Part shown: positions 3,756 to 61,280 of the stretch, in pieces
Position numbering within the stretch: position 1 is the stretch's first letter
Layout of the letters: each line of letters begins with the position of its first letter
Source of the DNA: Fidelibacterota bacterium SCGC AAA003-L08
GTDB taxonomy: Bacteria > Fidelibacterota > Marinisomatia > SCGC-AAA003-L08 > D37C17
Length of the DNA stretch: 64,000 bases
Assembly: GCA_000405805.1 (NCBI GenBank)
Contig: ASPJ01000001.1
Span: 36,591-100,590 of the forward strand
Direction: 5' to 3'
Translations under genes and position numbers: made by a program
Notes under the pieces: model-generated
What the model was told of the DNA's origin: nothing
The model's database searches: none
What the model saw: the letters and a program-made list of their open reading frames with translations, nothing else

Positions 3756-6460
3756 ATGAAGCAGGCATATTTCTTTGGCAAAGGACAAGCTGACGGAAAA
3801 TCTTCTGACAGTAAACTGTTAGGTGGTAAAGGTGCTAATTTAGCAGAAATGACGAAGATAGGACTACCTGTTCCCCCTGGATTTACTATTACCACAGAAT
3901 GCTGTATTGAATATTTGAAAAAAAATCAATTTTCTGATATATTAGAAGATGATGTTCATAATATGATACGTAAAATAGAATCAATTATGGGGAACCAATT
4001 TGGAAATATTAAAACCCCACTACTACTTTCAGTGCGATCAGGGGCGAGACAATCAATGCCAGGCATGATGGAGACTGTTTTAAATGTTGGGTTAACTGAA
4101 AAAACAATTCCCGGATTAATTAAAATATTTAAAGATAAAAGATTTGTTTATGATGCATATCGTAGATTAATCATGATGTATTCTGATGTTGTTATGGAGA
4201 AGGCAGAAGGAATAGTCATCCCTAATGGGCAGTTATCTATTCGTGAAGAACTTGAAGTTATTATGGAAGATATTAAAACTAAAAACAATATAACTTATGA
4301 TTCTGAGCTTTCGGCTAATCAACTTAAAGAAATGTCTTTACTTTTTAAAAAGAAAATCAAATTAAAATTAGGAAAAAGATTCCCGGATAATCCTAAAAAA
4401 CAATTATGGGGAGCCATTGAAGCAGTATTTAAATCTTGGAATGGAAAAAGAGCTATTCATTATAGGAAAATTGAAAAAATTCCAAATCATTGGGGCACCG
4501 CTGTTAATGTCCAGGCAATGGTATTTGGAAACTTAGGCAATCAATCAGGTACTGGAGTTGCTTTTACGCGTAATCCTTCAACTGGATCGAATCAATTCTA
4601 TGGCGAATGGTTAATTAATGCACAGGGAGAGGATGTAGTTTCGGGTATCAGAACCCCAAATCCAATTAATCATTATAGTCGCAATAAAGAATCGAAAGGT
4701 CTGCCTAATTTAGAGATTAGTTTTCCAAATATATATTCTCAATTAATTAAGATAAAAGATATATTAGAAGATCATTTTAAAGATATGCAAGATATTGAGT
4801 TTACATTTCAGAATAATATTCTATGGATGCTACAAACACGAAGAGGCAAGCGTAATGGGCGGGCTGCATTAAATATTGCTATGGATATGTTGAAAAAGAA
4901 ATTAATATCAGAAGCAGAGGCAATTAATAGAGTAAGCACAAATAATTTAGAAGAAATCATGCATCCAATGATTAACCCTGAAAAAGAAAAAAATCATAAA
5001 ATATTAGCCTCTGGATTACCGGCGGGGCCAGGTGGAGCTTGTGGCCAAATTGTCTTAGATGCAGACGCTGCTGAAATTTTAAACAAAAAAGGTCATTCAG
5101 TGATATTGATTCGTAATGAAACATCCCCTGAAGATATACATGGCATGCATGCATCCCAAGGAATATTAACTGCCAAGGGTGGGATGACATCTCATGCAGC
5201 ACTTGTTGCACGTGGATGGGGAAAATGTTGTATTGTTGGCTGTTCAAGTATGATTATTGATTTAAATAATAAATTAGTTACTATTGGTGGAGAAGAATTG
5301 AAAGAAGGTGATTGGATTTCTTTAAATGGATCAACGGGTAATATTTATAAAGATCAAATGGATTTAATTAATCCTGATTTAGCAAATGATAAAATTTTTA
5401 AACAGTTTTTGAATTTGTGCGATAAACATAGGACAATTAAAATTAGAACCAATGTAGATACTCCATTAGATGCTAAACAGGCATTAAAGTTTAAATGTGA
5501 AGGAGTAGGCCTTTGCAGAACAGAACATATGTTCTTTGAACCAGACAGAATTACTGCTATGAGAGAAATGATTTTAGCTGAGAACTCTAAAGATAGGAAG
5601 AAAGCTGTTATGGAGTTATTACCCTATCAAAAACAGGATTTTTATGATTTATTAAAAGTAATGTCAGGTCTACCCGTAACAATACGTTTATTGGACCCTC
5701 CTTTACATGAGTTTTTACCTCAAACTGAAGAACAAATATTACATTTAGCTGATGAGATGGGAATTACATCAAAAACTATTTATGATCGCATTGACTCATT
5801 GCATGAACTTAATCCAATGTTAGGCCATCGAGGGTGCAGATTGGGGATAGTGTATCCAGAAATAACTATTATGCAAGCTCAAGCAATTTTTGAAGCATGT
5901 GCAGAATTAATGAACGATGGTTTTTATCCAATTCCAGAGATAATGGTTCCCCTTGTAGGATCAGTAAATGAATTTTCAGACCAAAAATCTCTTATAGTAA
6001 GAAAAGCAAAACAAGTAGAAAAAAAATGGGTATTAAAATTAATTATTTAATTGGGACAATGATAGAATTACCAAGAGCATGTTTAGTTGCTGATCAAATT
6101 GCAGAATCCGCAGATTTCTTCTCATTTGGGACGAATGATTTGACACAGACAACCTTTGGATTTTCAAGAGATGATATAGGTAGTTTCTTGCCAGATTATT
6201 TAGAGCAAAATATTTTAGCAGAAGATCCATTTCAAACTATTGATATACAAGGGGTAGGCTCTTTATTGCAGATAGCAATTCATAAAGGTCGATTAGTTAA
6301 TCCAGAAATTAAAATTGGAATATGTGGAGAGCATGGTGGAGATTCTCAATCGGTAGTATTCTTTGACCAAATTAATTTAGATTATGTAAGTTGTTCTCCT
6401 TATAGAATCCCTATTTCAAAACTTGCTGCGGCACAATCAGCATTGTTAGCCAACCATTAA
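3756..6460 (+). CDS. ppdK: pyruvate, phosphate dikinase, split into two ORFs (3756-6050 and 6026-6460) by a single-base frameshift in an A8 run
   Basis: The N-terminus [43 protein letters not shown] matches PPDK. The phospho-His region is [21 protein letters not shown]. The C-terminal PEP-utilizer region (GTMIELPRA...[20 protein letters not shown]) is in the second frame. Adding one A to the run at 6019-6026 gives the continuous reading ...[25 protein letters not shown]. Confidence 0.9.
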
Positions 6461-6541: not shown

Positions 6542-8251
6542 ATGATTATGAAAAGGGTATTATTATTTTTAATGGTTTTATGTTCTAGTTTATTTTCTTC
6601 TACAGATTTTACTGAGGAAGAAAAAAGAGAATTAGGGAATCAAGCAATGCATCAGATGATGCAAAAAATTTGGACTGAAGCAATGGAAGCAAAATCAGCA
6701 TATAATAATGGCGTTTTTAATACACGTGAAGAATATCTTGAGAATGTATGTTCAACAGCTCCAGTAGCTCCTCCAGGTGTTTTTCACATTCATGCAGATG
6801 TTTCAAGTGAATTAGCAGCTGGAGATCCATCAGCATCAGTTTATATATCATGGGATGGCCAAGATAGTTGGTCTAATTATGTTGCCAGTCCTTTGGATCC
6901 TGAACTTGTGGGCCCTGGATATGAAAATACATGGGGACTAGAAACACCTAGCATAGGGACTTCTGCTGATTGGTATTTAGCAGGGACAGTTAATTCCGAA
7001 GCCCTTGGGTATGATTATGGCACTATTTTATTGAGTGGTTCCCCGCATAATGCAGATCAAATAGGTGTTCCATTGCCCCCAAATTTGTATGGATTATTAG
7101 CTGAAGATGAAAGTGGAGATGCATCGTCTGCTCAAGATATATTAAATATTAAAGGAAGTTACTATGATGATGGAGGTACTTTGGAAGATGGGTCTGGGGA
7201 TGGTGCTGAAAGATTTTATATGTCTATGGAAATTAATGGTGGTTGTTGTGATGAAGGAGGACTTTTTGGTCCTTGGTATCTTTATGGTGTAGGTATTGTA
7301 AACCCAGATTCAGAAACTCCAGTTGCATATGCTATTGGTTATGGAGATGGTGGTTTTGGTCAATTATTACCTGGGTTATTAAAAATTACAGGGGATCTTT
7401 CAACAGGAGAAATTGATGGATTTGATTATATAACAACAGATATTAACTATAATACTAACGGTGATTTTATGCAAGCTACGACATTAATGTCGTATATTAC
7501 AAATGATGCAGATTGGGGCGACTGGCCAAATTCTGTATATGGTTTTATTGCTTTAGGAGTTACTGTAGAAGCATCTTTAGATGGGTTAGATGTAGCTGCA
7601 GATATTAAAGATGAGACTTCACCGGGGTTATTTATTATGAATTCTATACATCAAGTTGGGAATAATGTTTTTGAGTTGGATGATTTATCATTTGATTCTG
7701 ATAATATGATATTATCTACAACATATAGTGATGAAGATGGTAATCTACCATGGTTTAAATCAATACAAATATGTGAAAATGTAGGAGGATTTTGTTATTT
7801 CCAGGAAGTTCCTATTCCAGATAGCCATACATATGAAGATGGCGTTATTTTTTCTGCTGATGTTACTAAATATATAACAGGATATTGTGCTTCTAATATT
7901 TTTGGAGAAGATGATTTGGATTTTGATAATGAAGAATCATGTACAGCTGCTGATGGAACGTGGTATGCTCCTATCCCAGATGGAGAATATGTAGCAAAGT
8001 TCGCATTTGCTGATGGAGAATATAATCCTAATGATGTTGAATATTTAGATATTACTATAGGTGAAGGTGGAACGGGATGTGCCTTGGTAGGAGACGTTAA
8101 TGAAGATGACACATTAAATATATTAGATGTAGTATTACTAGTGAACCTTATATTAAGCGGAAGTGATGCTGAGTGTGGTGATGCGAATGGAGATGATACA
8201 ACTAATATATTAGATGTAGTATTATTGGTAAATATTATCCTTGCTGGATAA
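6542..8251 (+). CDS. secreted acidic protein of unknown function with C-terminal dockerin-like module
   Basis: 569 aa with signal peptide MIMKRVLLFLMVLCSSLFSS. The body is D/G/E-rich with no motif I recognise. The C-terminus is GDVNEDDTLNILDVVLLVNLILSG...GDANGDDTTNILDVVLLVNIILAG. Confidence 0.6.
   Translation: MIMKRVLLFLMVLCSSLFSSTDFTEEEKRELGNQAMHQMMQKIWTEAMEAKSAYNNGVFNTREEYLENVCSTAPVAPPGVFHIHADVSSELAAGDPSASVYISWDGQDSWSNYVASPLDPELVGPGYENTWGLETPSIGTSADWYLAGTVNSEALGYDYGTILLSGSPHNADQIGVPLPPNLYGLLAEDESGDASSAQDILNIKGSYYDDGGTLEDGSGDGAERFYMSMEINGGCCDEGGLFGPWYLYGVGIVNPDSETPVAYAIGYGDGGFGQLLPGLLKITGDLSTGEIDGFDYITTDINYNTNGDFMQATTLMSYITNDADWGDWPNSVYGFIALGVTVEASLDGLDVAADIKDETSPGLFIMNSIHQVGNNVFELDDLSFDSDNMILSTTYSDEDGNLPWFKSIQICENVGGFCYFQEVPIPDSHTYEDGVIFSADVTKYITGYCASNIFGEDDLDFDNEESCTAADGTWYAPIPDGEYVAKFAFADGEYNPNDVEYLDITIGEGGTGCALVGDVNEDDTLNILDVVLLVNLILSGSDAECGDANGDDTTNILDVVLLVNIILAG
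8090..8248 (+). repeat. dockerin-like duplicated Ca-loop/helix module (copy 1 of 7 in window)
   Basis: The two segments are GDVNEDDTLNILDVVLLVNLIL and GDANGDDTTNILDVVLLVNIIL. The two halves are also similar at the DNA level (aatatattagatgtagtattaYtRgtRaaY). Confidence 0.75.
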
Positions 8252-8277: not shown

Positions 8278-8312
8278 AAAAAGCCTCTTTATTAATTAAA
8301 GAGGCTTTTTTT
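8278..8312. terminator. bidirectional rho-independent terminator between convergent genes
   Basis: Stem aaagcctcttt (8280-8290) pairs with aaagaggcttt (8298-8308) around a 7-nt loop. An A-run lies on the left and a T-run (8306-8312) on the right. Confidence 0.8.
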
Positions 8313-8336: not shown

Positions 8337-9266
8337 TTATTCTATGAATTCACCTTCACCCAGGATATCTTCTAAATTCCATTCACCAGAACTAATTTTA
8401 TCTTTAGCAATATTCAGAATTTGAGATTGAGCTCCTTCTACTTCTCTTTTTGCAACAGGTGTTTCAATAGGTGAAAACATAGCTTGTTTCTTTTGGGGAA
8501 GAAATTCTACAACCCTATTGACCGTTTCATTTTCATAGCCTTTTAATGCTTTTGCCATTAAATCGACATCTAAATCTGGATTAGACCAAAATTCTGAAGC
8601 AACTCCTTCTGGTAATGAATTAATCAAATCATCAAATGAAATATAATGTTTTTTAATTTCAGCATATAAAGCAGGATCATCTGATTGTACTTGTCCAAGG
8701 TATTGTTTAGCTTCACTTTCCGGGAGATTACTTAATATTGTAGCAATACTTTTTCCTCCTCCACGTGAAAATTCTTTAGGTCCAGGTATAAAAGCAGCTT
8801 TATTTTCTAGTTCTCGTGCCATATCTACAACTGCTTCCAAGGGGATATCATTTAAATTCCCTATTTGGATAATAACTTTATTTTTTAATCCAATATCTAG
8901 TTTATCAAGAAATTTCATTTGTCTTTCAGGAGTTATTTGTTCAATTGCTAAAGCAATAATCTTTACTTCCTCTTTAGATAATAGATAAAAAATCTGCTCA
9001 TCATTTAAGTCTCGGATAAATTTAAATACATCATCTGGCTCAGGTTTATTTCTATATTGATTAGACATCATTTTAAAGTAATATTCTTCCATAATCAATT
9101 TTTTTGTAGCTGTAGGAGTATGTTGTAGTTCTATAGATCGTACTCTTAATTTCAACATATCAGATTCACTTATTGAATTAAATAGTGGCATTGCTAATTG
9201 TTCGCCTAATATTTGCAATAATATTGCTGCTTTATCAAAACCAGAGTAATTTTCTAAATTAGTCAT
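8337..9266 (-). CDS. fliG: flagellar motor switch protein FliG homologue
   Basis: 309 aa. The match runs across N, M and C domains: GFDKAAILLQILGEQLAMPLF (N), the GGGKSIATILSNL linker/ARM region, DPALYAEIKKHYISFDDL (compare MFVFEDL), DLMAKALKG..ETVNRVVEFLPQKKQAMF, and REVEGAQSQILNIAKDKISSGEW (compare VEEAQQxIVxxxRxLxxxGEI). A TAATG stop/start overlap links it to the upstream FliF-like gene. Confidence 0.85.
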   Translation of the reverse strand: MTNLENYSGFDKAAILLQILGEQLAMPLFNSISESDMLKLRVRSIELQHTPTATKKLIMEEYYFKMMSNQYRNKPEPDDVFKFIRDLNDEQIFYLLSKEEVKIIALAIEQITPERQMKFLDKLDIGLKNKVIIQIGNLNDIPLEAVVDMARELENKAAFIPGPKEFSRGGGKSIATILSNLPESEAKQYLGQVQSDDPALYAEIKKHYISFDDLINSLPEGVASEFWSNPDLDVDLMAKALKGYENETVNRVVEFLPQKKQAMFSPIETPVAKREVEGAQSQILNIAKDKISSGEWNLEDILGEGEFIE

Positions 9267-10504
9267 TATTCTTCTCCTTCAGTTTCAGCATTGTCCGCAT
9301 CTTTAGGGCTTCCATCATCCATCCAATCTTTTATTATTTGAGTAGCACCTTCTTTTTGGCTTGCAGACATTGCAATTGAAGATTGACGAAGAGCTTTTAA
9401 CTCTGAAGAAAGCACACTTTCATCTACATTTGCGGCTGTTCCTCCTGGATAGGATGATTGAGATACACCTGCATTAGCTGAAGATGACTGTACTTCTGAA
9501 GTTGTATCAGTTTCATTTGTTTGAACAGTATCATTTGAATTATTATTAGGATCTTTTGGCTTTAAATAAACAACTGACTTTTTATTGATTAGTATCATTA
9601 GGAACGCAATTGCAGATAATGCAAGCAAAAATATTCCCCCACCAATAAGCCATCCAGATATTCCGCCACTACTACCTCCGCCTTCCAAGGCATTTCCACC
9701 TGTTTGACTATTAATTTGCGCATCTTTTTCAGCTATGACTTGTGCAGTTAAATCGTCAACTTTTTCTTGATTTTTTTGGAAGCTCTGTTCTCTGTCATCT
9801 TCTAAAAAAGCTAATCGAATTGAATCTTTAGTTGATAAATAAATTGCCCAAGTTTGTAATTCATTTTCTGAATCTTCAAGTTGAGCCTTTAAATCAGCAA
9901 GCTGTAAGTTTAATTCAACCATTTGATCTTTTCTAGCCTGATCTTTCATATCATTTAACTCTTTTCGGAGTTTTTCAATTTCTGAATCTTCATTATTTTT
10001 ACTATTAAAATTCATTGTTTCAATAGTTATGCAATCATCACATTGTGCTGTCTGTGGAATAATTCCTTTTATTAAAGATTCAATCATTTTTTCATTAGCA
10101 CCATTAGCTAGAGAGGGTTCAATCCAAACTTCAATATCAATTTCATTTATTATATAATCATCTGCACCCAACCTTCTATTAGAAGTGGATTGATTATTAT
10201 TAGAGATTCCTTTTGAGCCTGATAGTGGTACTCCAGGGAGGTATTCCATTCCTCTATTATTCACTTTAGGAGTATTTTTAGATTTATTATTAAGTAAATC
10301 TTTATATCTACCAATTTCAAGATTAACAATCACAACAAATCTATCTTTATTCTTATCAAGCGTTTTTTCAAGTTCAGAATAAATTTTCTCTTTTAATGAA
10401 TTCTCAAGATTTATCTTTTGAGTAAAAGATTCTAAATTCTGAGGGAATAAAATCCCAATTGTTAAAATTAAAACGATACTACTAATATATTTTTTCATAT
10501 TCAT
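9266..10504 (-). CDS. shortened FliF/SctJ-like ring protein (one RBM-like domain, coiled coil, TM helix, cytoplasmic tail with FliG-binding-like C-terminal helix)
   Basis: 412 aa. Layout: N-terminal signal/anchor (ISSIVLILTIGILF); beta-alpha-beta segments RFVVIVNLEIG and IDIEVWIEPSL..EKMIESLIKGIIP..CITIETMNF typical of ring-building motifs; a coiled coil (EIEKLRKELNDMKDQARKDQMVELNLQLADLKAQLEDSENELQ); a TM helix (GWLIGGGIFLLALSAIAFLMILI); and a tail ending QKEGATQIIKDWMDDG, which resembles the FliF C-terminal VIRQWM helix. Its position immediately upstream of fliG is canonical for fliF. Confidence 0.6.
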   Translation of the reverse strand: MNMKKYISSIVLILTIGILFPQNLESFTQKINLENSLKEKIYSELEKTLDKNKDRFVVIVNLEIGRYKDLLNNKSKNTPKVNNRGMEYLPGVPLSGSKGISNNNQSTSNRRLGADDYIINEIDIEVWIEPSLANGANEKMIESLIKGIIPQTAQCDDCITIETMNFNSKNNEDSEIEKLRKELNDMKDQARKDQMVELNLQLADLKAQLEDSENELQTWAIYLSTKDSIRLAFLEDDREQSFQKNQEKVDDLTAQVIAEKDAQINSQTGGNALEGGGSSGGISGWLIGGGIFLLALSAIAFLMILINKKSVVYLKPKDPNNNSNDTVQTNETDTTSEVQSSSANAGVSQSSYPGGTAANVDESVLSSELKALRQSSIAMSASQKEGATQIIKDWMDDGSPKDADNAETEGEE

Positions 10505-10535
10505 TGTTAATGCTCTCCTAAGCCAACTTAATTAT

Positions 10536-11225
10536 TTAATAATTTGGTCCTATAATAATCTTAATACGTCTATTTTTCCTCTTTAAATCTCTTGTTCCAT
10601 TCATTGAGTCGATTAGTGCTCGATCAACATCTCCTCCTCGCCTTTGATTCCATGTCACCCCCACTGGCCATGTATCAGCGTAACCCGAAGGACTTAATCT
10701 GGTGAAATTTACACCTTTATCAATTAAATATTTAACAACTTCTGAAGCTCGAGCTGTTGATAGTTCCCAGTTTGAAGGATATTTGTTTGCCATTTTACCT
10801 CGCATCAAATCATTATCAGTATGTCCTTCAATTAAAATTGGTCTAAGATCACCTTCTTCAGTTAATACATCTTGTATTGCTCTATCTAGAACCTCTTTTA
10901 ATTTTGGTTGTAATTCAACTTGAGAGCTTTCAAAACAGATATCTCCATCAATTTCTAATGCAATTCCTCGAGGGTCCTGTGAGACAGTTGCTGTTGAATC
11001 CATATTTAGTTCTTCAATCATTTTTTCAAATTCTTTTTTAATTTCGCCTAGATCTTTTGATTCACCTTTTTTATCACCTTCAGCAAACTCTGCTAACTTA
11101 ACTGGGTCAAGAGTTGATAGAGAAAAAAGTAACACAAAGAAAGCAAACAACAAAGTCATCATATCAGAATATGTTGCAAACCAACCAGGTAATCCTCCTC
11201 CGTCTTTTTTATTTTTCTTACCCAT
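10536..11225 (-). CDS. motB: flagellar-type stator protein MotB (OmpA-like peptidoglycan-binding domain)
   Basis: 229 aa. The N-terminal TM carries the conserved channel Asp (GWFATYSDMMTLLFAFFVLLFSLS). The OmpA-like C-domain reads ILIEGHTDN...NWELSTARASEVVKYL...SPSGYADTWP. It lies 3 nt downstream of motA. Confidence 0.85.
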   Translation of the reverse strand: MGKKNKKDGGGLPGWFATYSDMMTLLFAFFVLLFSLSTLDPVKLAEFAEGDKKGESKDLGEIKKEFEKMIEELNMDSTATVSQDPRGIALEIDGDICFESSQVELQPKLKEVLDRAIQDVLTEEGDLRPILIEGHTDNDLMRGKMANKYPSNWELSTARASEVVKYLIDKGVNFTRLSPSGYADTWPVGVTWNQRRGGDVDRALIDSMNGTRDLKRKNRRIKIIIGPNY

Positions 11226-11228
11226 TTT

Positions 11229-12041
11229 TTATTCTTCGTCTAAGATCCTATCTTTACTATCTAAGAAAGCATTCAATTTATCTCGCATTAATATTGGATG
11301 AGTTTTATCATATAATAATTTTACTCCCTCAAGTATTAAAGCACTTTCAACTTCTTTATTTTCACTAATTCCTTCAAGCTTTGCAGCAAATGGTAAGAAT
11401 ATGAAATTAGCAAAAACAGAACCATATAGTGTTGTTATTAATGCGATAGCCATAGATTTCCCTAATTGTGCAGCTGGATTTACACCAGGAGCAGTTTCAC
11501 CACCCATTCCTGCAAGCATGAGTACAAGACCAATCAGTGTACCAATCATTCCAAAGGCTGGAGTATATTCACCCATAGTTTTCATTACCTTAGCTTGTCG
11601 CTCTTCTCGTATAGCTCTATTTTCTTCCATATTTTCTAGAATATCTACGATAACATCTTTTTTATAACCTCCAGCAACATAGTCACAGCCTATTTGTGAA
11701 GTCTTTAACCTAAATGCCATTGATTCAGGAGGACTTTCTAAAGATTTTTGAAGTTCACCTTTTTTATGAGATTCAGCTAAAGAAATAAAATCTTTCACAA
11801 TATCTGCTGGCGAATATGGATTATCAGATATTAATCTTTTTAAATTTTTAAATATTGATAGAACTTCTGATAACTTAAAGGCAATGGCAGTAGCTGCCAA
11901 GGCTCCTCCTACTACAATAAGCAAGCTAATACCAGACCATAATTTCATAATGGATAGACCTGCATCTGCTGCTGCTGCATAAGATGCATAGCTCATTAAT
12001 CCCAAACCTAATACAAAACCTATAATTGTTGCTAAATTCAT
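11229..12041 (-). CDS. motA: flagellar-type stator protein MotA/PomA (MotA/TolQ/ExbB channel family, 4-TM type)
   Basis: 270 aa with two N-terminal TM helices, a ~100-aa cytoplasmic loop, TM3 (YTPAFGMIGTLIGLVLML) and TM4 (MAIALITTLYGSVFANFIFLPFAAKLE). The two conserved prolines are present. Confidence 0.85.
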   Translation of the reverse strand: MNLATIIGFVLGLGLMSYASYAAAADAGLSIMKLWSGISLLIVVGGALAATAIAFKLSEVLSIFKNLKRLISDNPYSPADIVKDFISLAESHKKGELQKSLESPPESMAFRLKTSQIGCDYVAGGYKKDVIVDILENMEENRAIREERQAKVMKTMGEYTPAFGMIGTLIGLVLMLAGMGGETAPGVNPAAQLGKSMAIALITTLYGSVFANFIFLPFAAKLEGISENKEVESALILEGVKLLYDKTHPILMRDKLNAFLDSKDRILDEE

Positions 12042-12051
12042 ACTTTCTCTC

Positions 12052-13383
12052 CTAATCCTTTAATTGTGCTGAATTTAAACGCTCCTCTTTATAAGCGAGA
12101 AGTAATTCTTGAATTTCTTCAAATTCAGGGTCTAATTTTAATGCAATATTCCAATTCATAGTAGCTCGTTGAAAATCACCTAGTTTATAATAAATTGATC
12201 CTCTTCGTGCATATGCAAGGGCAATATTAGGGTTCAAATCAATTGCTTTATCAATTTCAGCTAAAGCATCTCGATATTCCTCTTCATAAAAATAACGTAA
12301 ACATCGAGTCAAATGTCTTGCAACTCTATTTGTAATTGATTGATTAGCTTGTTCTTTTAAGTAAAAAACTCGAGTTGAATCCATGAACATAGCAACTTTA
12401 TGCTGAAGCAATAAATTATTATCAGATAAAATTACAATTTCATTATTTATTAAATTAATTGAATCTTGTAAAGTACTAATTTGTTTTAATAATTCCAATT
12501 CCCTATTAGTAATATCATCAGGGAATTCAGATATATCTAACAAACTTGGTTTTGGTGCATTTGGAATATTCATTGTTAATCCCATACTAACAGCAGGTGC
12601 ATCTGGTTGTAATTGTTGATAATCATCGCCAAGTTTAGTTTCACTAGCAAACCCCCCTAGATTATTAATATGAGTCATACCAATAGACATACTATAATCA
12701 TTCGTAAATGGAATGATAGTTCCCATATTAATTCCATTCCCATCATATTCAACGATTAATTCCATCCCTCCATTCCGAGATAAATAGGGAGTATTTAAAT
12801 TAAAACCTAAAAATAAACCTGATCCACTAGATGAAATATTATCAGATGAATTAACATGTGGGTCATATTTTACTTTTCCAGTACCTGCGCCTACATTAAT
12901 TGACAGCGTGTAATTATCAAATGATTTTCTGCTTGTTAAAACACCAAAAAATGATATATCATCAATACGCATAACATCATTTCCATCCCTCCTATAGAGA
13001 ACGTCTTGAATTCCAGCAGATAAGGAAACATCTCCATGCTTAAATATTGATTTTTGAAAATGAAATCCTAGTTCTCCAACATTACTTGGGTCAATAATAT
13101 TACCAGCAGTTAGACCAAATGTAAATCCAGTCTTTGTTTGCATTCTGATAGAAGCAGAATTGCTACTTTTTCCGTAATTACTAGGATCAGCTGCAAAATT
13201 AATAATTTCAGAAGAGATACCTACAGAGAAAAAATAAGGGTTTTCATGATTAAATGCATAATTTGGTATACGCATCATATTCCCCGGTCGTGAAAATGCA
13301 ACTCTAGAATTAGCATTTACCATATTTAACATTATTGTTAAAATAAATAAAGATATAAATAGTTGTTTATAGTTATTAATCAT
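12052..13383 (-). CDS. secreted beta-rich (outer-membrane-barrel-like) protein with coiled coil and C-terminal TPR repeats, co-operonic with motAB
   Basis: 443 aa with signal-like N-terminus LFILTIMLNMVNA. About 270 aa is rich in G/S/N/aromatic alternating strands. A coiled coil (ELELLKQISTLQDSINLINNE) is followed by TPRs (ALAEIDKAIDLNPNIALAYARRGSIYYKLGDFQRATMNWNIALKLDPEF). There is a 10-nt gap to motA. Confidence 0.5.
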   Translation of the reverse strand: MINNYKQLFISLFILTIMLNMVNANSRVAFSRPGNMMRIPNYAFNHENPYFFSVGISSEIINFAADPSNYGKSSNSASIRMQTKTGFTFGLTAGNIIDPSNVGELGFHFQKSIFKHGDVSLSAGIQDVLYRRDGNDVMRIDDISFFGVLTSRKSFDNYTLSINVGAGTGKVKYDPHVNSSDNISSSGSGLFLGFNLNTPYLSRNGGMELIVEYDGNGINMGTIIPFTNDYSMSIGMTHINNLGGFASETKLGDDYQQLQPDAPAVSMGLTMNIPNAPKPSLLDISEFPDDITNRELELLKQISTLQDSINLINNEIVILSDNNLLLQHKVAMFMDSTRVFYLKEQANQSITNRVARHLTRCLRYFYEEEYRDALAEIDKAIDLNPNIALAYARRGSIYYKLGDFQRATMNWNIALKLDPEFEEIQELLLAYKEERLNSAQLKD

Positions 13384-13396
13384 TTTTTAAATATAA

Positions 13397-13945
13397 TTAT
13401 TTAAAACTTTTGTATTGTAGTTTCGCTAATTTATAATATTCACTATCTGGACAATTTGATATCAAATTATCTAAGTAAATATTTGTAGCGTGAATATTCC
13501 CTGTCTTTTTATTATATAGTGCGAGCAAAAAATATTTTTCATCAATAGGATAATTTTCTGATATAAACTCTAGACTATTAATAGCTTCTTTATATTTCCC
13601 TAATCTATATAATACATCTGAATAAATCATTCTATCTATATCAGTAAAAGATTTTTCTTCCCCGTAAATATTGTGAAAGTATTCTGCTAATTCAACATAT
13701 CTCTCACTAACATATAATATTTTAATTATATGATTTTGTGATAGATTGCTTTCCAGTAAATTAAATTCTGTTATATTAGTTGACTCTCTATATGCAGGCA
13801 TTATTTGAGTATCAGCAATCAATGGTTTTATAATATTTTCTTCATGCGTAGAGTTAGATGTAATACGAACACCTAAATCCCAAAGTATTACGTCATCTGC
13901 AAAAATAAATGTTAGAATTATTAATGAAGCTAATAGTCTATTCAT
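13397..13945 (-). CDS. small secreted TPR-like protein
   Basis: 182 aa with signal peptide MNRLLASLIILTFIFA and helical repeat segments such as YSDVLYRLGKYKEAINSLEFISENYP and YYKLAKLQY. It overlaps the upstream gene by 8 nt. Confidence 0.5.
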   Translation of the reverse strand: MNRLLASLIILTFIFADDVILWDLGVRITSNSTHEENIIKPLIADTQIMPAYRESTNITEFNLLESNLSQNHIIKILYVSERYVELAEYFHNIYGEEKSFTDIDRMIYSDVLYRLGKYKEAINSLEFISENYPIDEKYFLLALYNKKTGNIHATNIYLDNLISNCPDSEYYKLAKLQYKSFK

Positions 13946-14894
13946 ATTGTTCCCAGTCTATGGTATATGAGTAACCAATGAATGAGCCCATTGATTTTGG
14001 GACCATCAATTCAAATTCAGCAACGGCTCCTGGTAATATACTCGAATCGGAAGTTACCCCAGTTTTAAATGTATAATAAGATCCTCTTGCAAAAGCTGTT
14101 AAGGTCTCAACGTCACCATGCCAATTTTTGCGGAAGGTTACATTGATTTTTGCAAAATCACCTCTCTGCGTCCCAATATTTTTTATTTCTCCACTTAAGA
14201 TTGTATTCCCAGTTTTATCTTTTGTTTCTTGTATATCACCTATTAAAACTAACTGTGCTGTTATATTTTCTTTTCGCCGTTCTATAATATTAATACCTGA
14301 TTCATCATCATTTTGTACTTCTACTATTTCTATTTGATCTGGCGATAGGCTCCGTGTTTCTTCTTTAGCATCTTCGTCAATAATATTTTCAACTACACGA
14401 ACAATATCACTTCTATCAATTATTAATTTACCAATTAGGGTTTCTACTTTTACAACATCACGATCCTGATATACTATTTTCCCAAATACAGTTGTCCCAT
14501 TAGATAAAATTATTTCTTTATTATAGATTGTAAAAGGGTTTCCCCATACTTGGGATTTAGCACTTAATTCACGTAAATCAGCTTTATAATGATTAAGTTC
14601 AGCTTTGAGTTTTTTAATTTCAAGGTTTAATTCATTAATATGCAAATCACCATCTTGATAAGTTGAATTATCTACATCTAAATCATTTTCGGGGATATAT
14701 TCATCAAAAGCTTTCTGTTCATCTTCATTTTCAGTATCAGATGCATTATTGAATTCTTCTAACGTTTCTGATGAATTTTGTTTGTTACCCGAATCATCTA
14801 AATCAGGTTCTGAACTTCCCCCTCCACAAGCATTCAATAAAATAATGAGAGAAAAAATAGTCATTATATTTAAAACGATTTTATGTGTTTTCAT
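13938..14894 (-). CDS. lipoprotein with acidic linker, coiled coil and beta-rich C-terminal domain (first gene of the motAB-fliG operon)
   Basis: 318 aa with lipobox LLNAC-GGGSS, an acidic low-complexity stretch, a coiled coil (LNLEIKKLKAELNHYKADLRELS) and a beta-rich C-terminal half. No family recognised. Confidence 0.5.
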   Translation of the reverse strand: MKTHKIVLNIMTIFSLIILLNACGGGSSEPDLDDSGNKQNSSETLEEFNNASDTENEDEQKAFDEYIPENDLDVDNSTYQDGDLHINELNLEIKKLKAELNHYKADLRELSAKSQVWGNPFTIYNKEIILSNGTTVFGKIVYQDRDVVKVETLIGKLIIDRSDIVRVVENIIDEDAKEETRSLSPDQIEIVEVQNDDESGINIIERRKENITAQLVLIGDIQETKDKTGNTILSGEIKNIGTQRGDFAKINVTFRKNWHGDVETLTAFARGSYYTFKTGVTSDSSILPGAVAEFELMVPKSMGSFIGYSYTIDWEQYE

Positions 14895-15131
14895 ATTGCA
14901 AATATCCTAATTTATGTGTTTCAAATCAGATTTAACTATTAAATAGATTCAAAAAATATTAATAAAATAGCCAATAAAAAAATGTTTTCTGTTTAGAAAT
15001 TGTGCATGAAAAATACAATCATACAATATATAGTATATCTTGATAATTAATCATAAAATTAATGTTTGGTAGTTGCTTTAAATTCACCATCAAATTAAAT
15101 TATCATATCAGGTAATTGGAGAATATTCATA

Positions 15132-24851: not shown

Positions 24852-27128
24852 ATGAAGCGTAAAATATTATATATATTATATTTTTATCTATTAGTTAGTT
24901 TTTTATTTTCATTTAGCGATGTAAATAATGAAAAAATAATAGAAAATTTAAAAAATAAATCAATTAGTCTAATAGAAGGTGAAAACTTTGAGTTAGCATT
25001 AGATTTGTATTTAAAAATATTAGAATTTGAAAAAAATATCTATTCGGATAATAGCATTCAATTAGCACATACATATGATCAGATTGCAGATTTATATATT
25101 AAATTGGATAATCAGTCGGCAGCCCTATCGTATGTAAAAAAATCTATTAACATATATGAAAAGAATATGCTCCAGCCAAAGGAAAAGCTACTATCTTCTC
25201 TTAAAGATATATCTATAATATATGAAAATCAGAATCAATATGATTTATTAGATAAGTCTGAGAAATTAATAAAATCATTAGAAAATATAAATGATTTATA
25301 TTCTATTAAAGATATTTTTGTAGAGATTGATAATTTAAATCAAACAAAAGAAGATACCGCATTTCAATTTATTGATTTAGCCCAATCCTATAGATATAGA
25401 GGGCTCTATTCCCAATCAGCAGAAAATTTTTCTAAAAGTTTAGATTTAAAGAATTCGAATCTAGATTTTAAATATTACTATGATTTAATTTTAGAAGATA
25501 CAACCTATAATCAAGAAATGATTAATGCCTTTGAATTTATAGCTGAAATTGATTCATCCTTCTATGGAAGTTATTTTTATTTATCATTACTACATAAACA
25601 GATTGGTAATCATAACCAATATATGGAATATATGGATAAATATATAAAGTACTCAGATAATAATGAAAAAGCACTGTATTTAAAAGCTATTGATCATTTT
25701 GAAAAACATAATTATATTGAATCTTTATTTATTTTTCAACAGATTTTAATTAATAATAAAAACAGCTTGTTTGCACGAGTAATGACAGCTAAATCCCTGT
25801 TTGCATTGAATTCATTTGAGAATGCAATAGAAGCATTCAAAATAGTATTAGTTAATGATCCTTATAATTTAGAATCACGATATCATTTAGGGATATCATA
25901 TATTCATTCTGATAAATATAATGCTGCAATAGAGGAATTAACTCAAGTATTATTATTATATCCAGATTATAAAGATACTTATTACTATCTGGGCTACTCA
26001 TATTTAATGATTAATGATGAAAATAAAGCGAAGGAATCATTAAATAGAGTAATATTAAATAATCCAGATAATGGGGATGCTCATTATCTATTGGGTACTA
26101 TTTATGAAAATATTCTAAATGAAGATAAGGCAATCAGTTCATATAATAATTCCATTAAATACTCTCCAGAAAATTTAGATGCATATAAAAAACTAGGATT
26201 GATTTTTTATAATCAAGAAGAATATAGAGATGCTATGGAATATTTGAGAAAATATATTATACATAATCCAGATAGTACTAATATTTTAAATACACTTGGA
26301 GATATCTTCATAAAAGAAAAAAGATACCAAGAAGTTGTAGATACTTATTATAAATTGATAAATATTAATGGAGACAATATAGACTATTATAATTATATAG
26401 CAGATGCATACTCCAATCTTAAAGATTATGAAAACTCAAAAAGAGTGTATTATAAAATTAATGAACTAGACAGCTTAAACATCAACTCATATATTAAATT
26501 AGGTGAGATTGCATTACAAGAAAACAATTATAATCAAGCAATCAATTTATTTTTATATGCTACAGAGTATAGTAATGATTCCATTGATTTACTTTACGCG
26601 TTAGCATTGGCATATGGCGAATCGGAATTATTTTTACAGTCAGCCATAACATTTCAACATATTCTAGATTTATATCCAGATAACCCTGAAATTAATTATC
26701 AACTAGCAGTAATTTATAAAGAGATGAATCTACATATATTAGCCATTAGCCATTTTAATAAGTATTTATATTTTTATGGTGAGGATCCAATGGCATTTTA
26801 TTTTTTGGGAGAGTCATATCTAAAAATAGAAGATTATCATAATGCTAAATTAGCATTTGAGAAATCTCATAAACTAAACTCAGGAGATTATAGGACTTTA
26901 TTCTACTTAGGTCTTGTTTCTCAAGAATTAAGTAATTACGAATCAGCTGCAAAATCATATAAGAAAGCAATTAGAATAAATTCAGATCATAGTTTATCTC
27001 ATTATAATTTAGGAATCAGCTACTTAGAACTAGGAAAAAAGCGCGAAGCTCAAAAAAAATTAGATATATTATTCATGTTGGATAAAACACTCTATGATTC
27101 TTTAAATGTAAGAATAAATTCCTTTTAG
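24852..27128 (+). CDS. large tetratricopeptide-repeat protein
   Basis: 758 aa with an N-terminal hydrophobic segment followed by many TPR units (for example AHYLLGTIYENILNEDKAISSYNNSIKYSPEN and SHYNLGISYLELGKKREAQKKLD). Confidence 0.7.
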   Translation: MKRKILYILYFYLLVSFLFSFSDVNNEKIIENLKNKSISLIEGENFELALDLYLKILEFEKNIYSDNSIQLAHTYDQIADLYIKLDNQSAALSYVKKSINIYEKNMLQPKEKLLSSLKDISIIYENQNQYDLLDKSEKLIKSLENINDLYSIKDIFVEIDNLNQTKEDTAFQFIDLAQSYRYRGLYSQSAENFSKSLDLKNSNLDFKYYYDLILEDTTYNQEMINAFEFIAEIDSSFYGSYFYLSLLHKQIGNHNQYMEYMDKYIKYSDNNEKALYLKAIDHFEKHNYIESLFIFQQILINNKNSLFARVMTAKSLFALNSFENAIEAFKIVLVNDPYNLESRYHLGISYIHSDKYNAAIEELTQVLLLYPDYKDTYYYLGYSYLMINDENKAKESLNRVILNNPDNGDAHYLLGTIYENILNEDKAISSYNNSIKYSPENLDAYKKLGLIFYNQEEYRDAMEYLRKYIIHNPDSTNILNTLGDIFIKEKRYQEVVDTYYKLININGDNIDYYNYIADAYSNLKDYENSKRVYYKINELDSLNINSYIKLGEIALQENNYNQAINLFLYATEYSNDSIDLLYALALAYGESELFLQSAITFQHILDLYPDNPEINYQLAVIYKEMNLHILAISHFNKYLYFYGEDPMAFYFLGESYLKIEDYHNAKLAFEKSHKLNSGDYRTLFYLGLVSQELSNYESAAKSYKKAIRINSDHSLSHYNLGISYLELGKKREAQKKLDILFMLDKTLYDSLNVRINSF

Positions 27129-61245: not shown

Positions 61246-61280
61246 AGTTCCTTCATTATTTATTAATTAGACACATGTAT

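What the first reader, a model, noticed from the sequence alone, without database searches (positions are those of the whole stretch)
8337..14894. Stand-alone stator plus minimal rotor operon (envelope trio - MotA - MotB - mini-FliF - FliG) with no other flagellar genes in 64 kb
Seen in sequence:
- Seven minus-strand ORFs are packed with gaps of only 3-31 nt or overlaps (8-nt overlap at 13938-13945; TAATG overlap at 9266). A strong bidirectional terminator at 8278-8312 closes the operon.
- 11229-12041 has the 4-TM MotA/PomA layout with both conserved prolines (YTPAFGMIGTLIGL; FIFLPFAAKLE).
- 10536-11225 has the MotB TM with the ion-conducting Asp (ATYSDMMTLLFAFF) and an OmpA-like PG-binding domain.
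- 8337-9266 matches FliG through its N, M and C domains.
- 9266-10504 is a cut-down FliF-like protein.
- The three leading genes encode a lipoprotein, a TPR protein and a beta-rich/TPR protein.

Not seen: fliH/I/J after fliG, fliM/N, export gate, rod, hook, flagellin or che genes. The flanks are ppdK, a dockerin protein, and the pan and nad genes.

Established knowledge: MotAB are 5:2 ion-driven rotary motors that push on FliG. Related 5:2 motors (ExbBD, TolQR, GldLM, ZorAB) have been recruited to non-flagellar tasks, but none of those uses FliG. TPR-rich periplasmic scaffolds for stators are known (MotX in Vibrio; PflA/PflB in Campylobacter).

Inference: this is either a piece of a dispersed flagellar regulon with a strongly reduced MS ring, or a flagellum-independent rotor-stator module coupled to envelope proteins. 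The second would be a previously undescribed system.
Basis: partly seen in the sequence, partly recalled or inferred. Interest (0 to 1): 0.85.

Follow-up and report, generated by a model that had tools for sequence, protein, structure and literature searches.

The report
Flagellar-type motor core without a flagellum
A marine SAR406 (Marinimicrobia) bacterium carries a tight seven-gene operon that joins the flagellar stator (MotAB) and a stripped-down rotor (FliG plus a one-domain FliF) to outer-membrane proteins, and the same kit occurs in Fibrobacteres and other phyla, so it looks like an undescribed ion-driven machine that is not a flagellum.

Summary
Seven packed minus-strand genes at 8337-14894 end at a 14-bp hairpin.

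What the genes encode:
- FliG N, M and C domains, MotA_ExbB, and MotB_plug plus OmpA all pass Pfam cut-offs.
- The "mini-FliF" matches no HMM. Its predicted fold is closest to FliF MS-ring structures. Its C-terminal motif matches the FliG-binding end of Vibrio FliF. In other phyla it is naturally fused to FliG.
- The "beta-rich/TPR" protein is predicted as an outer-membrane barrel followed by a long helix and TPRs.

The operon is syntenic in about 23 Marinimicrobia species, with FliG identity down to 34%, and is under purifying selection (dN/dS 0.04-0.24). A related module (FliF::FliG fusion, TPR protein, about 360-aa beta-rich protein, MotAB) occurs in Fibrobacteraceae and in MAGs labelled Pseudomonadales, Elusimicrobia, Bacteroidota and others.

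Both lineages of this FliG lack the EHPQR FliM-binding motif. The Marinimicrobia copies keep the stator-facing charges. No flagellar, chemotaxis or type III genes lie in the 64 kb or in the fetched flanks.

The best reading is a flagellum-independent stator-rotor machine that spans the envelope. Its output is unknown. I could not check whole genomes for flagellar genes. I found no paper describing it.

The parts
13938..14894 (-). Gene 1: lipoprotein (lipobox LLNAC), 318 aa. It has a coiled coil, a small SH3-like beta domain and a conserved C-terminal beta domain ending in FIGYSYxIDWE. This is the first gene of the operon.
   Evidence: ORF. No Pfam or PDB-sequence family for the core. Some relatives add an N-terminal CarboxypepD_reg domain. 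Present in every related locus with enough flank, at 38-75% identity. dN/dS 0.11.
13397..13945 (-). Gene 2: small secreted TPR protein, 182 aa, with a YbgF/TPR_6-like ending. It is a variable accessory: its slot holds 0, 1 or 2 such genes in relatives.
   Evidence: Weak TPR_6 hit, E 3.5e-4. Slot content varies between loci.
12052..13383 (-). Gene 3: predicted outer-membrane beta-barrel (about residues 50-274), fused to a long helix (291-366) and a C-terminal TPR module (363-432).
   Evidence: AF2 model with mean pLDDT 68. Best Foldseek PDB matches are OmpG, FapF, Tsx and KdgM. TPR Pfam hits. The TPR end is homologous to the TPR proteins encoded next to FliF::FliG fusions in other phyla (blastp 7e-14 to 5e-5). 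dN/dS 0.10.
11229..12041 (-). Gene 4: MotA/PomA-type stator A subunit, 270 aa.
   Evidence: MotA_ExbB 73.6 bits. Best solved relatives are the Clostridium sporogenes MotA (3.5e-31) and PomA (3e-25). The RK...E charges and both prolines are conserved across the family. dN/dS 0.05.
10536..11225 (-). Gene 5: MotB-type stator B subunit, 229 aa, with the TM Asp, a plug and an OmpA-like peptidoglycan-binding domain.
   Evidence: MotB_plug 58.2 and OmpA 55.0 bits. Best solved relative is the C. sporogenes MotB, 1.6e-28. The Asp and the plug segment are invariant across the family.
9266..10504 (-). Gene 6: reduced FliF-like protein, 412 aa. Order of parts: signal peptide or TM, one ring-building motif (alpha-beta-beta-alpha-beta) with a disordered insert, a roughly 100-residue helix, a TM helix (285-307), a disordered linker, and a conserved C-terminal helix carrying the FliF-type GxP...W motif.
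   Evidence: No HMM hit. AF2 secondary structure. The top 14 Foldseek PDB hits are FliF MS-ring entries. The tail profile's two best PDB hits are the C-terminus of Vibrio FliF, E 0.0086. One homologue carries a precomputed PF08345 hit. The same architecture is fused to FliG in about 70 cluster representatives.
8337..9266 (-). Gene 7: FliG-like rotor protein, 309 aa, with N, M and C domains. The EHPQR motif is absent, the GGG linker is kept and the torque-helix charges are kept.
   Evidence: Pfam FliG_N, M and C above cut-off. Only FliG chains match in the PDB. Motif alignments. dN/dS 0.04.
8278..8310 (.). Bidirectional intrinsic-terminator-like hairpin that closes the operon and the convergent dockerin gene.
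   Evidence: 14-bp stem, 5-nt loop, T-runs on both strands.
14895..15131 (-). AT-rich 237-bp divergent intergenic region shared with panD. This is the presumed promoter region of the operon.
   Evidence: Sequence. There is one 9/12 sigma-70-like match at 15046-15018, but promoter-like matches in the region are no more frequent than in shuffles. This is an inference from position only.

Best explanation
The operon encodes a non-flagellar machine that spans the cell envelope and is built on the flagellar torque-generating core.

Proposed mechanism:
1. MotA and MotB form a peptidoglycan-anchored, ion-conducting stator.
2. The stator pushes on the C-terminal domain of a FliG-like protein.
3. FliG is tethered by its N domain to the cytoplasmic tail of a reduced FliF. 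That FliF crosses the inner membrane once (if its N-terminal hydrophobic segment is a cleaved signal peptide) or twice, and carries one ring-building motif plus a long helix in the periplasm.
4. The periplasmic end meets an outer-membrane barrel protein through that protein's helix and TPR module, together with a lipoprotein.
5. Ion flow at the inner membrane is thereby turned into movement, most likely rotation of a FliF/FliG ring, that does work at or in the outer membrane.

There is no FliM/FliN switch, no export gate, and no rod, hook or filament.

Shown: the identity of the parts, their conserved linkage, the gene fusions that tie them together, conservation of the interface residues, and purifying selection.

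Inferred: ring assembly, rotation, the contact between the FliF-like periplasmic part and the TPR/barrel protein, and any output. The output (surface-protein movement, secretion or outer-membrane maintenance) is unknown.
For: Parts:
- FliG N/M/C, MotA_ExbB, and MotB_plug plus OmpA pass Pfam cut-offs.
- The closest solved relatives are flagellar stators and FliG only.
- FliF-likeness of gene 6: alpha-beta-beta-alpha-beta motif, helix and TM in the AF2 model. The top 14 Foldseek PDB hits are FliF rings, E 1e-5 to 4e-3. The 48-column tail profile has its two best hits among 177,635 PDB sequences on the last residues of Vibrio FliF, E 0.0086.
- Gene 3 is predicted as an outer-membrane barrel plus helix plus TPR.

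Linkage:
- The same gene order holds in about 23 of 29 GTDB species loci and in L030.
- About 70 of the top 150 cluster representatives hit by this FliG are natural FliF-like::FliG fusions with the same tail motif.
- Those fusions sit beside a TPR protein homologous to the gene 3 TPR end, beside a beta-rich protein of about 210 or 360 aa, and in three loci beside MotA and MotB.
- Barrel and TPR are one protein here and two elsewhere. FliF and FliG are two proteins here and one elsewhere.

Interfaces: the MotA RK...E charges, the prolines, the MotB Asp and the plug are conserved. The FliG torque-helix charges and the FliG_N fold are conserved in Marinimicrobia.

Not a flagellum:
- EHPQR is lost in both the Marinimicrobia and the fusion families, with a shared Arg-to-Gly change.
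- NCBIfam flagellar equivalogs score 81 against a cut-off of 227, 141 against 341 and 119 against 283.
- No flagellar, che or T3SS gene was found among the ORFs scanned in the 64 kb window or in the fetched flanks.
- In an ocean MAG survey, the nrfA community that was almost entirely Marinisomatota was classed non-motile, having fewer than two of fliG, fliM and fliN.

Not decaying: dN/dS is 0.04-0.24.
Against: - No whole genome of a carrier could be searched, so a flagellar gene set elsewhere is not excluded for this organism.
- The FliF assignment has no significant sequence-profile support for the periplasmic domain. It rests on a medium-confidence model: mean pLDDT 60, and about 65-73 in the RBM part.
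- TM-scores of the fold matches are low, 0.15-0.55.
- The tail match is short, 17 residues, with E 0.009.
- No contact between inner- and outer-membrane parts was modelled.
- The roughly 360-aa partner in other phyla shows no detectable homology to the barrel of gene 3.
- In three fusion loci MotAB is not adjacent.
- The NJ tree of FliG is too weak to place the family relative to flagellar FliG.
Confidence: 0.7

Rival explanations
1. It is one scattered piece of an ordinary flagellar regulon. The organism is flagellated, the other 30-odd genes lie elsewhere, and the short FliF is a lineage-specific reduced MS ring. The TPR, barrel and lipoprotein genes would be periplasmic stator scaffolds like MotX/MotY, FlgO/P/T or PflA/B.
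For: - The stator is of the flagellar (PomA/MotP-like) type and has a plug.
- FliG has all three domains.
- One partner protein in another phylum gives a sub-threshold FlgO hit, E 8.5e-4.
- Genome-wide absence of flagellar genes was not tested here.
Against: - FliG lacks EHPQR, so it has no obvious FliM dock.
- The FliF-like protein lacks the two SctJ-like ring-building motifs. From my own knowledge of MS-ring structures, those motifs surround the export gate in flagella. Here only one RBM is seen.
- The module is conserved in Fibrobacteraceae. As I recall, the cultured members of that group are non-flagellate.
- Marinisomatota-dominated communities were classed as lacking at least two of fliG, fliM and fliN.
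- No flagellar neighbour was found in any of the fetched loci whose flanks were annotated.
Confidence: 0.1
2. The parts do assemble, but nothing rotates as a ring. MotAB acts as an energiser, as ExbBD or TolQR do. The FliG and FliF-like proteins would be an adaptor that passes a conformational pull to the outer-membrane TPR/barrel protein, or a sensor that gates the channel.
For: - Other 5:2 motors deliver work to the outer membrane without a large rotor (established knowledge; reviewed in PMC9389320, listed).
- The accessory gene 2 has a YbgF/CpoB-like TPR_6 signature.
- In some fusion loci MotAB is not adjacent.
- Fusion-family FliG often lacks the basic torque-helix residue.
Against: - A ring-building motif that resembles FliF RBM3 and a full FliG with the stator-facing charges are exactly the elements that form the turning ring in flagella.
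- The stator has the flagellar cytoplasmic interface and plug rather than the compact ExbB/TolQ form: its best relatives are flagellar stators, and ExbB scores E 0.033.
Confidence: 0.15
3. It is a decaying remnant of a lost flagellum with no present function.
For: Two other genes in the window are split by frameshifts at homopolymer runs, so some gene decay or sequence error is present.
Against: - All seven ORFs are intact.
- Order and content are kept across a phylum, with FliG identity falling to 34%.
- dN/dS is 0.04-0.24.
- Functional residues are invariant.
Confidence: 0.02

Closest known systems
Bacterial flagellar motor core (MotA5B2 stator, FliG, FliF MS ring)
   Same: - Homologous MotA, MotB (with plug, Asp and OmpA domain) and FliG (N/M/C).
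- The FliF-type C-terminal tail motif.
- An RBM3-like fold.
- The stator-rotor charge pairs are kept.
   Different: - FliG has no EHPQR motif.
- FliF has one RBM instead of three, plus a long helix.
- No FliM/N, export apparatus, rod, hook or filament genes are linked.
- It is linked instead to an outer-membrane barrel/TPR protein and a lipoprotein.
- All flagellar equivalog HMMs score below their cut-offs.
[quoted passage not shown]
   Same: A reduced FliF naturally joined to FliG in bacteria regarded as non-flagellate. It shows that FliF/FliG can persist outside a flagellum.
   Different: The chlamydial protein is about 330 aa, keeps an SctJ-like RBM2, carries only a FliG_M-like region and is discussed as a partner of the injectisome. 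No MotAB, TPR or barrel partners are reported for it. I did not compare the sequences directly.
Type IX secretion / gliding motor (GldLM/PorLM driving the GldKN/PorKN ring)
   Same: The idea: a 5:2 ion-driven motor in the inner membrane passes rotation across the periplasm to an outer-membrane-associated assembly. It is found in the same FCB superphylum.
   Different: No sequence relationship was found, and no GldL/M/K/N families were hit. In the T9SS the B subunit itself is the shaft and there is no FliG.
Tol-Pal and ExbBD-TonB energisers
   Same: A MotA_ExbB-family channel plus an OmpA-like peptidoglycan binder and TPR accessory proteins that link the two membranes.
   Different: The A subunit is clearly of the flagellar type (PomA/MotP 141 bits, against ExbB at E 0.033). 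There is no TolA, TolB or TonB. FliG and a FliF-like protein are present.
Periplasmic stator scaffolds of high-torque flagella (MotX/MotY, FlgO/P/T, PflA/PflB)
   Same: TPR or beta-rich envelope proteins encoded with, or acting on, stators. One partner in another phylum has a sub-threshold FlgO match.
   Different: No significant homology of genes 1-3 to these proteins was found. Those scaffolds surround a complete flagellar basal body.

Membership tests
Bacterial flagellum (motor as part of a flagellar apparatus) | FliG with N, M and C domains | tested here: met
   Pfam FliG_N 35.8, FliG_M 37.4 and FliG_C 53.5 bits, all above the gathering scores. Only FliG chains match in the PDB.
Bacterial flagellum (motor as part of a flagellar apparatus) | FliG EHPQR motif that docks FliM | tested here: not met
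   In the alignment with five canonical FliG sequences, EHPQ...R is replaced by E-x-x-x...G in all Marinimicrobia and fusion members.
Bacterial flagellum (motor as part of a flagellar apparatus) | FliF with SctJ-like RBM1 and RBM2 plus RBM3 (Pfam YscJ_FliF) | tested here: not met
   No YscJ_FliF hit at E<=1. No PDB sequence-profile hit. The model shows one RBM only, closest to FliF RBM3.
Bacterial flagellum (motor as part of a flagellar apparatus) | FliF C-terminal FliG-binding tail | tested here: met
   The tail profile's best two PDB hits are the C-terminus of Vibrio FliF, E 0.0086, over 17 residues. One homologue has PF08345. Natural fusions to FliG exist. Binding itself was not tested.
Bacterial flagellum (motor as part of a flagellar apparatus) | NCBIfam equivalog scores for FliG, MotA and MotB | tested here: not met
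   fliG 80.9 against 226.7. PomA/MotP about 141 against 341-394. MotD 118.6 against 283.
Bacterial flagellum (motor as part of a flagellar apparatus) | Linked or genomic FliM/N, FlhA/B, FliPQR, FliI, rod, hook and flagellin genes | tested here: inconclusive
   None among the ORFs scanned in the 64-kb window or in the gene tables of related loci. Whole genomes could not be searched. There is indirect published support for absence of FliM/N in Marinisomatota.
5:2 ion-driven motors (MotAB / PomAB / ExbBD / TolQR / GldLM / ZorAB) | MotA_ExbB channel domain with conserved TM3 and TM4 prolines | tested here: met
   PF01618 73.6 bits. PAxGM and F(L/N)P are invariant in 24 sequences.
5:2 ion-driven motors (MotAB / PomAB / ExbBD / TolQR / GldLM / ZorAB) | B subunit with a single TM carrying the ion-binding Asp | tested here: met
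   The Asp in T(F/Y)(A/S)DMMTLL is invariant. MotB_plug 58.2 bits.
5:2 ion-driven motors (MotAB / PomAB / ExbBD / TolQR / GldLM / ZorAB) | A5B2 stoichiometry and rotation of A around B | not testable with these tools
   Needs a multimer model or cryo-EM.
Type IX secretion / gliding motor | GldL/PorL, GldM/PorM, GldK and GldN homologues | tested here: not met
   No such Pfam or NCBIfam families were hit by any of the seven proteins. The only T9SS hit is the generic OmpA part of PorE.
Chlamydiaceae FliF-FliG fusion | About 330-aa protein with RBM2-like and second RBM-like parts and a cytosolic FliG_M-like end | not tested
   Known from PMC4768692. No chlamydial sequence was available to align. 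The architecture differs: the fusions seen here are 560-780 aa with full FliG.

The most novel reading that the evidence does not exclude
This is a previously undescribed, widely distributed class of ion-driven rotary machine. A ring of a one-domain FliF plus FliG is turned by MotAB and coupled through the periplasm to an outer-membrane barrel/TPR complex, in bacteria without flagella (Marinimicrobia, Fibrobacteres and others). It would be the first non-flagellar use of FliG with its stator. It might be a surviving sister or precursor of the flagellar motor from before a type III export apparatus was placed inside the ring.
Probability: 0.45. Interest if true: 0.92.

Novelty: new variant of a known kind. 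Interest (0 to 1): 0.82.

Why it matters
From my own knowledge, every known use of FliG is as the torque-receiving ring of a flagellum, and every known non-flagellar 5:2 motor works without FliG.

A conserved FliG, mini-FliF and MotAB kit wired to outer-membrane proteins in non-flagellate phyla would matter in four ways:
- It would add a new kind of envelope machine to one of the most abundant uncultured ocean lineages, and to the cellulose degrader Fibrobacter.
- It would give a natural minimal rotor-stator system (about five proteins) for structural and single-molecule work.
[quoted passage not shown]" (raised again in PMC12199754) experimentally testable.
- It would warn that surveys using fliG or motAB as motility markers will mis-score these phyla.

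Tried and rejected
Searches that found nothing:
- Sequence-profile search of the mini-FliF family against PDB sequences gave only coiled-coil noise.
- Pfam and NCBIfam on the mini-FliF and the lipoprotein found no family.
- Profile search of the lipoprotein family against PDB sequences gave keratin-like coiled-coil noise only.
- Profile search of the roughly 360-aa partner family against PDB found nothing.
- hhalign of the gene 3 family and the gene 1 family against that partner family showed no relation. The barrel equivalence between phyla therefore remains an analogy.

Analyses that were too weak or failed:
- The neighbour-joining tree of FliG domains is too weak, at about 22% identity between groups and with only five canonical FliG sequences. 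It does not say whether the family branches inside or outside flagellar FliG. One earlier script run for this tree failed.
- Walking out from the window along its contig found only short duplicate contigs.
- The supplement of the flagellar-loss survey held only tip labels for Marinimicrobia and Fibrobacter, with no gene table.

Literature: ten full-text searches found no description of the module.

Considered and rejected:
- A Tol-Pal or ExbBD identity, because the A subunit is of the flagellar type.
- A T9SS identity, because no Gld/Por families were hit.
- A link to T9SS as the output of the machine. This was left as speculation because no T9SS gene is linked.

Full report
**What is in the sequence.**
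They are separated by 31, 3, 10 and 13 nt. There is an 8-nt overlap at 13938-13945 and a TAATG stop/start overlap at 9266. A perfect 14-bp hairpin with T-runs on both strands at 8278-8310 closes the operon against the convergent dockerin gene. Upstream lies a 237-bp AT-rich divergent region shared with panD. The sigma-70-like matches there are no better than chance.

**What the proteins are.**
- Pfam scores FliG_N, FliG_M and FliG_C (35.8, 37.4 and 53.5 bits), MotA_ExbB (73.6), MotB_plug (58.2) and OmpA (55.0) above their curated cut-offs.
- The only solved relatives of the last gene are FliG chains.
- The stator proteins are closest to the Clostridium sporogenes MotA and MotB and to PomAB. 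This is a flagellar-type stator, with a plug, and not an ExbB/TolQ-type channel.
- The NCBIfam flagellar equivalogs are all hit, but far below their cut-offs.
- The third gene is predicted (mean pLDDT 68) as a beta-barrel at about residues 50-274, then a 75-residue helix and a TPR module. Its best PDB fold matches are the outer-membrane barrels OmpG, FapF, Tsx and KdgM.
- The first gene is a lipoprotein with a coiled coil, a small beta domain and a strongly conserved C-terminal beta domain. Neither Pfam nor PDB sequences name it.
- The second gene is a small TPR_6-like protein. Its slot holds none, one or two such genes in relatives.

**Is gene 6 a FliF?**
Four independent observations support the label.
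1. *Architecture.* In 22 related loci the protein has an N-terminal hydrophobic segment, an alpha-beta segment, a variable insert, a beta-alpha-beta segment, a long helix, a second TM helix, a disordered linker and a conserved C-terminal helix.
2. *Fold.* The AF2 model is of medium quality (mean pLDDT 60, and 65-73 in the RBM part). Its top 14 Foldseek PDB hits are all FliF MS-ring structures, mainly the RBM3/collar part, which is also an RBM with an insertion. E-values run from 1e-5 to 4e-3. PrgK appears further down the list.
3. *Tail.* A 48-column profile of the tail, searched against 177,635 PDB sequences, has its two best hits on the extreme C-terminus of Vibrio FliF (EPELAAQVVKNWMNDNG, E 0.0086). 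From my own knowledge, that segment is the one that binds FliG_N. One homologue also carries a precomputed PF08345 (YscJ_FliF_C) hit.
4. *Natural fusions.* An exhaustive HMMER search with this FliG found 26 close representatives of about 310 aa. After them came about 70 proteins of 560-780 aa, mostly ranking above the few canonical-length (about 330-aa) FliG sequences in the list. These proteins join a signal or TM segment, a roughly 180-residue periplasmic RBM-like part, a TM helix, the same GxP...W tail motif and a complete FliG in one chain.

I therefore accept "reduced FliF", with the proviso that the periplasmic homology is at fold level only.

**Conservation and spread.**
The organism is a Marinimicrobia (SAR406, Marinisomatota) bacterium. 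In 29 species-level loci from GTDB genomes, the order lipoprotein, (TPR), barrel-TPR, MotA, MotB, FliF-like, FliG is kept wherever the contig reaches far enough. That covers about 23 loci, with FliG identity falling to 34%. The flanks are housekeeping genes such as pan, nad and ppdK. Against the 90%-identical relative L001, dN/dS is 0.04 (FliG), 0.05 (MotA), 0.10-0.11 (MotB, barrel-TPR, lipoprotein) and 0.24 (FliF-like). dS is near saturation, so these values are rough.

Outside the phylum, the fusion proteins come from MAGs labelled Fibrobacterales, Fibrobacteraceae, Elusimicrobia, Deltaproteobacteria, Saccharospirillaceae/Pseudomonadales, Bacteroidota and Pseudomonadota. They are annotated only as hypothetical or "FliG C-terminal domain-containing".

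Their neighbourhoods repeat the theme:
- Two Fibrobacter-lineage loci read: fusion, roughly 370-aa beta-rich protein, TPR protein, MotA, MotB. The second of these lies next to a Fib_succ_major gene.
- A Pseudomonadales-labelled locus reads: 352-aa protein, TPR protein, fusion, MotA, MotB.
- Four further loci keep the TPR protein beside the fusion, and three of those also have a beta-rich protein of about 210 or 370 aa. None of the four has an adjacent MotAB.

The TPR proteins are homologous to the C-terminal TPR module of gene 3 (blastp 7e-14, 2e-9, 7e-9 and 5e-5). Barrel and TPR are one protein in Marinimicrobia and two elsewhere. FliF and FliG are two proteins in Marinimicrobia and one elsewhere. 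Such alternating fusions are strong evidence that these parts work together. The roughly 360-aa partners are related to each other but not detectably to the gene 3 barrel. One of them gives a sub-threshold FlgO hit, and a 212-aa partner gives a weak OMP_b-brl hit.

**Why this is not an ordinary flagellar motor.**
- In an alignment with five canonical FliG sequences, the EHPQ...R motif is replaced in every Marinimicrobia and fusion member. Only the Glu is kept, and the Arg position is a shared Gly, as in IGNL or MGNI. From my own knowledge, that motif is the FliM docking site.
- The MFxF hinge reads Y-x-x-F.
- The features needed to receive torque are kept in Marinimicrobia. These are the basic and acidic torque-helix positions (for example AKREVEGA), the Gly-rich linker and the FliG_N fold. 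On the stator side they are the MotA RK...E charges, both prolines, the MotB Asp and the plug.
- The FliF-like protein has one RBM instead of three. As I recall from MS-ring structures, the two missing SctJ-like RBMs are the ones that surround the export gate.
- Among the 47 window ORFs of at least 110 aa that were scanned with Pfam (the two pan genes next to panD were not), none is a flagellar, chemotaxis, T3SS or T9SS component. The listed flanks of related loci contain none either.
- Published surveys agree indirectly. A reconstruction of SAR406 genomes reports flagellar genes for other bins but not for SAR406. In an ocean oxygen-deficient-zone MAG set, motility required two of fliG, fliM and fliN. 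There, the nrfA community that was almost entirely Marinisomatota was classed non-motile.
- As I recall, cultured Fibrobacter is non-flagellate.

The absence of a flagellar set in this organism is therefore likely but not shown.

**Most likely mechanism.**
*Shown:* a flagellar-type stator, a FliG that keeps the stator interface and the FliF-binding domain but not the FliM dock, a FliF-like membrane protein with the FliG-binding tail and one ring-building motif, and outer-membrane and periplasmic partners, all co-inherited and in part fused.

*Inferred:*
- The FliF-like protein oligomerises through its RBM into a ring that carries a FliG ring on its cytoplasmic face.
- Peptidoglycan-anchored MotA5B2 units turn this ring.
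- The periplasmic part meets the helix/TPR arm of the barrel protein and the lipoprotein, so that work is delivered at the outer membrane. In Marinimicrobia this periplasmic part is extended by a 100-250-residue helix.

The invariant Gln just after the N-terminal hydrophobic segment resembles the signal-peptidase "Q-rule" that I recall for the Bacteroidetes group. If the segment is cleaved, the RBM ring would sit at the far end of a helical stalk, near the outer membrane. This point is speculative.

The output is unknown. Candidates are movement or release of surface proteins, secretion, or outer-membrane maintenance. I put 0.7 on "non-flagellar stator-rotor machine spanning the envelope", and roughly 0.5 on actual ring rotation coupled to an outer-membrane task.

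**Rivals.**
- *A scattered flagellar operon (0.1).* The evidence against it is the loss of EHPQR, the single RBM, the multi-phylum partners and the survey data. It stays open until genomes are searched.
- *A non-rotary energiser or adaptor in the manner of Tol or TonB (0.15).* This fits the outer-membrane link and the TPR_6 accessory. It does not explain why a ring-building motif and a full FliG with stator charges are kept.
- *A decaying relic (0.02).* Intact ORFs, phylum-wide synteny and low dN/dS contradict it.

**Comparison with what is known.**
It works like the flagellar torque generator and is built from homologues of it. It fails several defining features of a flagellar motor (EHPQR, three-RBM FliF, equivalog scores, linked apparatus genes), so I do not file it as a flagellum.

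The nearest published precedent I found is the short chlamydial FliF fused to a FliG_M-like region (PMC4768692). That protein differs in size and domains and has no MotAB, TPR or barrel partners reported. In concept the module resembles the T9SS/gliding motor, where a 5:2 motor drives an outer-membrane-associated ring, but it has no sequence relation to it.

A recent survey of MotAB diversity treats FIT-type stators as flagellar and, in the passages I searched, does not mention such a module. [quoted passage not shown] Ten full-text searches found no description of the module. The library lacks most subscription journals, so prior work cannot be excluded.

**Verdict.**
I rate it a new variant of a known kind: the flagellar rotor-stator core in a new, non-flagellar, envelope-spanning context. 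Interest is 0.82.

Noticed in passing
window 3756-6460 (+): ppdK is split into two overlapping ORFs, 3756-6050 and 6026-6460. Both hit PEP-utilizers_C (profile positions 6-167 and 172-291). The break lies at an A8 run at 6019-6027. Relatives have one 900-aa gene. This is a frameshift, either a sequencing or assembly error or a pseudogene.
   Followed up: partly
window 36695-37647 (+): An alpha/beta-hydrolase gene (looks like a proline iminopeptidase; not checked) is also broken. ORF 36695-37222 covers only profile positions 1-102 of Abhydrolase_1, and the C-terminal part continues in ORF 37360-37647. This second frameshift-like split in the same contig hints at homopolymer errors.
   Followed up: partly
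window 6542-8251, 37749-39320, 49331-51256, 51262-52554, 54681-56066 (+): Five secreted proteins end in a type I dockerin domain. One has an arylsulfotransferase domain and one a glucose/sorbosone dehydrogenase domain. No cohesin partner was seen in the window. This is unusual for a planktonic marine bacterium and may be a surface-display or sorting tag.
   Followed up: no
window 59599-62018 (-) and 49331-51256 (+): A sulfation gene set: a bifunctional ATP-sulfurylase/APS kinase, a sulfotransferase next to it, and a dockerin-tagged arylsulfotransferase elsewhere in the window.
   Followed up: no
window 24852-27128 (+) and 29882-32263 (-): A 758-aa protein made almost wholly of TPR repeats, and a 793-aa FG-GAP/ASPIC-UnbV protein. 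Neither is linked to the motor operon in relatives as far as seen.
   Followed up: no
L040 6243-7301; L033 11824-12930; L038 1871-2995; L036 6229-7338: The roughly 360-aa partner of the FliF::FliG fusions forms its own family, with an N-terminal alpha/beta domain followed by a beta-rich C-terminal half (ending in an aromatic residue in one member). One member gives a sub-threshold FlgO hit (PF17680, E 8.5e-4, 19.6 bits against a cut-off of 22.6). No PDB or other Pfam relative was found.
   Followed up: partly
L035 9197-9994; L037 1-1001: In two fusion loci the TPR partner is a lipoprotein whose N-terminal part looks like a PEGA-type beta domain (YINSDPSNARILY...GYTPI). This was judged by eye only.
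   Followed up: no
L015, L027, L029 (record titles): Three loci with the Marinimicrobia-type FliG come from MAGs labelled SAR86, Lentisphaeria and Thaumarchaeota. These are probably mis-binned contigs rather than real occurrences.
   Followed up: no
window 13938-14894 (-), residues 123-168: The small beta domain of the lipoprotein gives sub-threshold NCBIfam hits to Leptospira-specific families (LA_0442/LA_0875 N-terminal domain, E 2.2e-5, 24 bits against a cut-off of 43; LIC_13076 family). The meaning is unknown.
   Followed up: no
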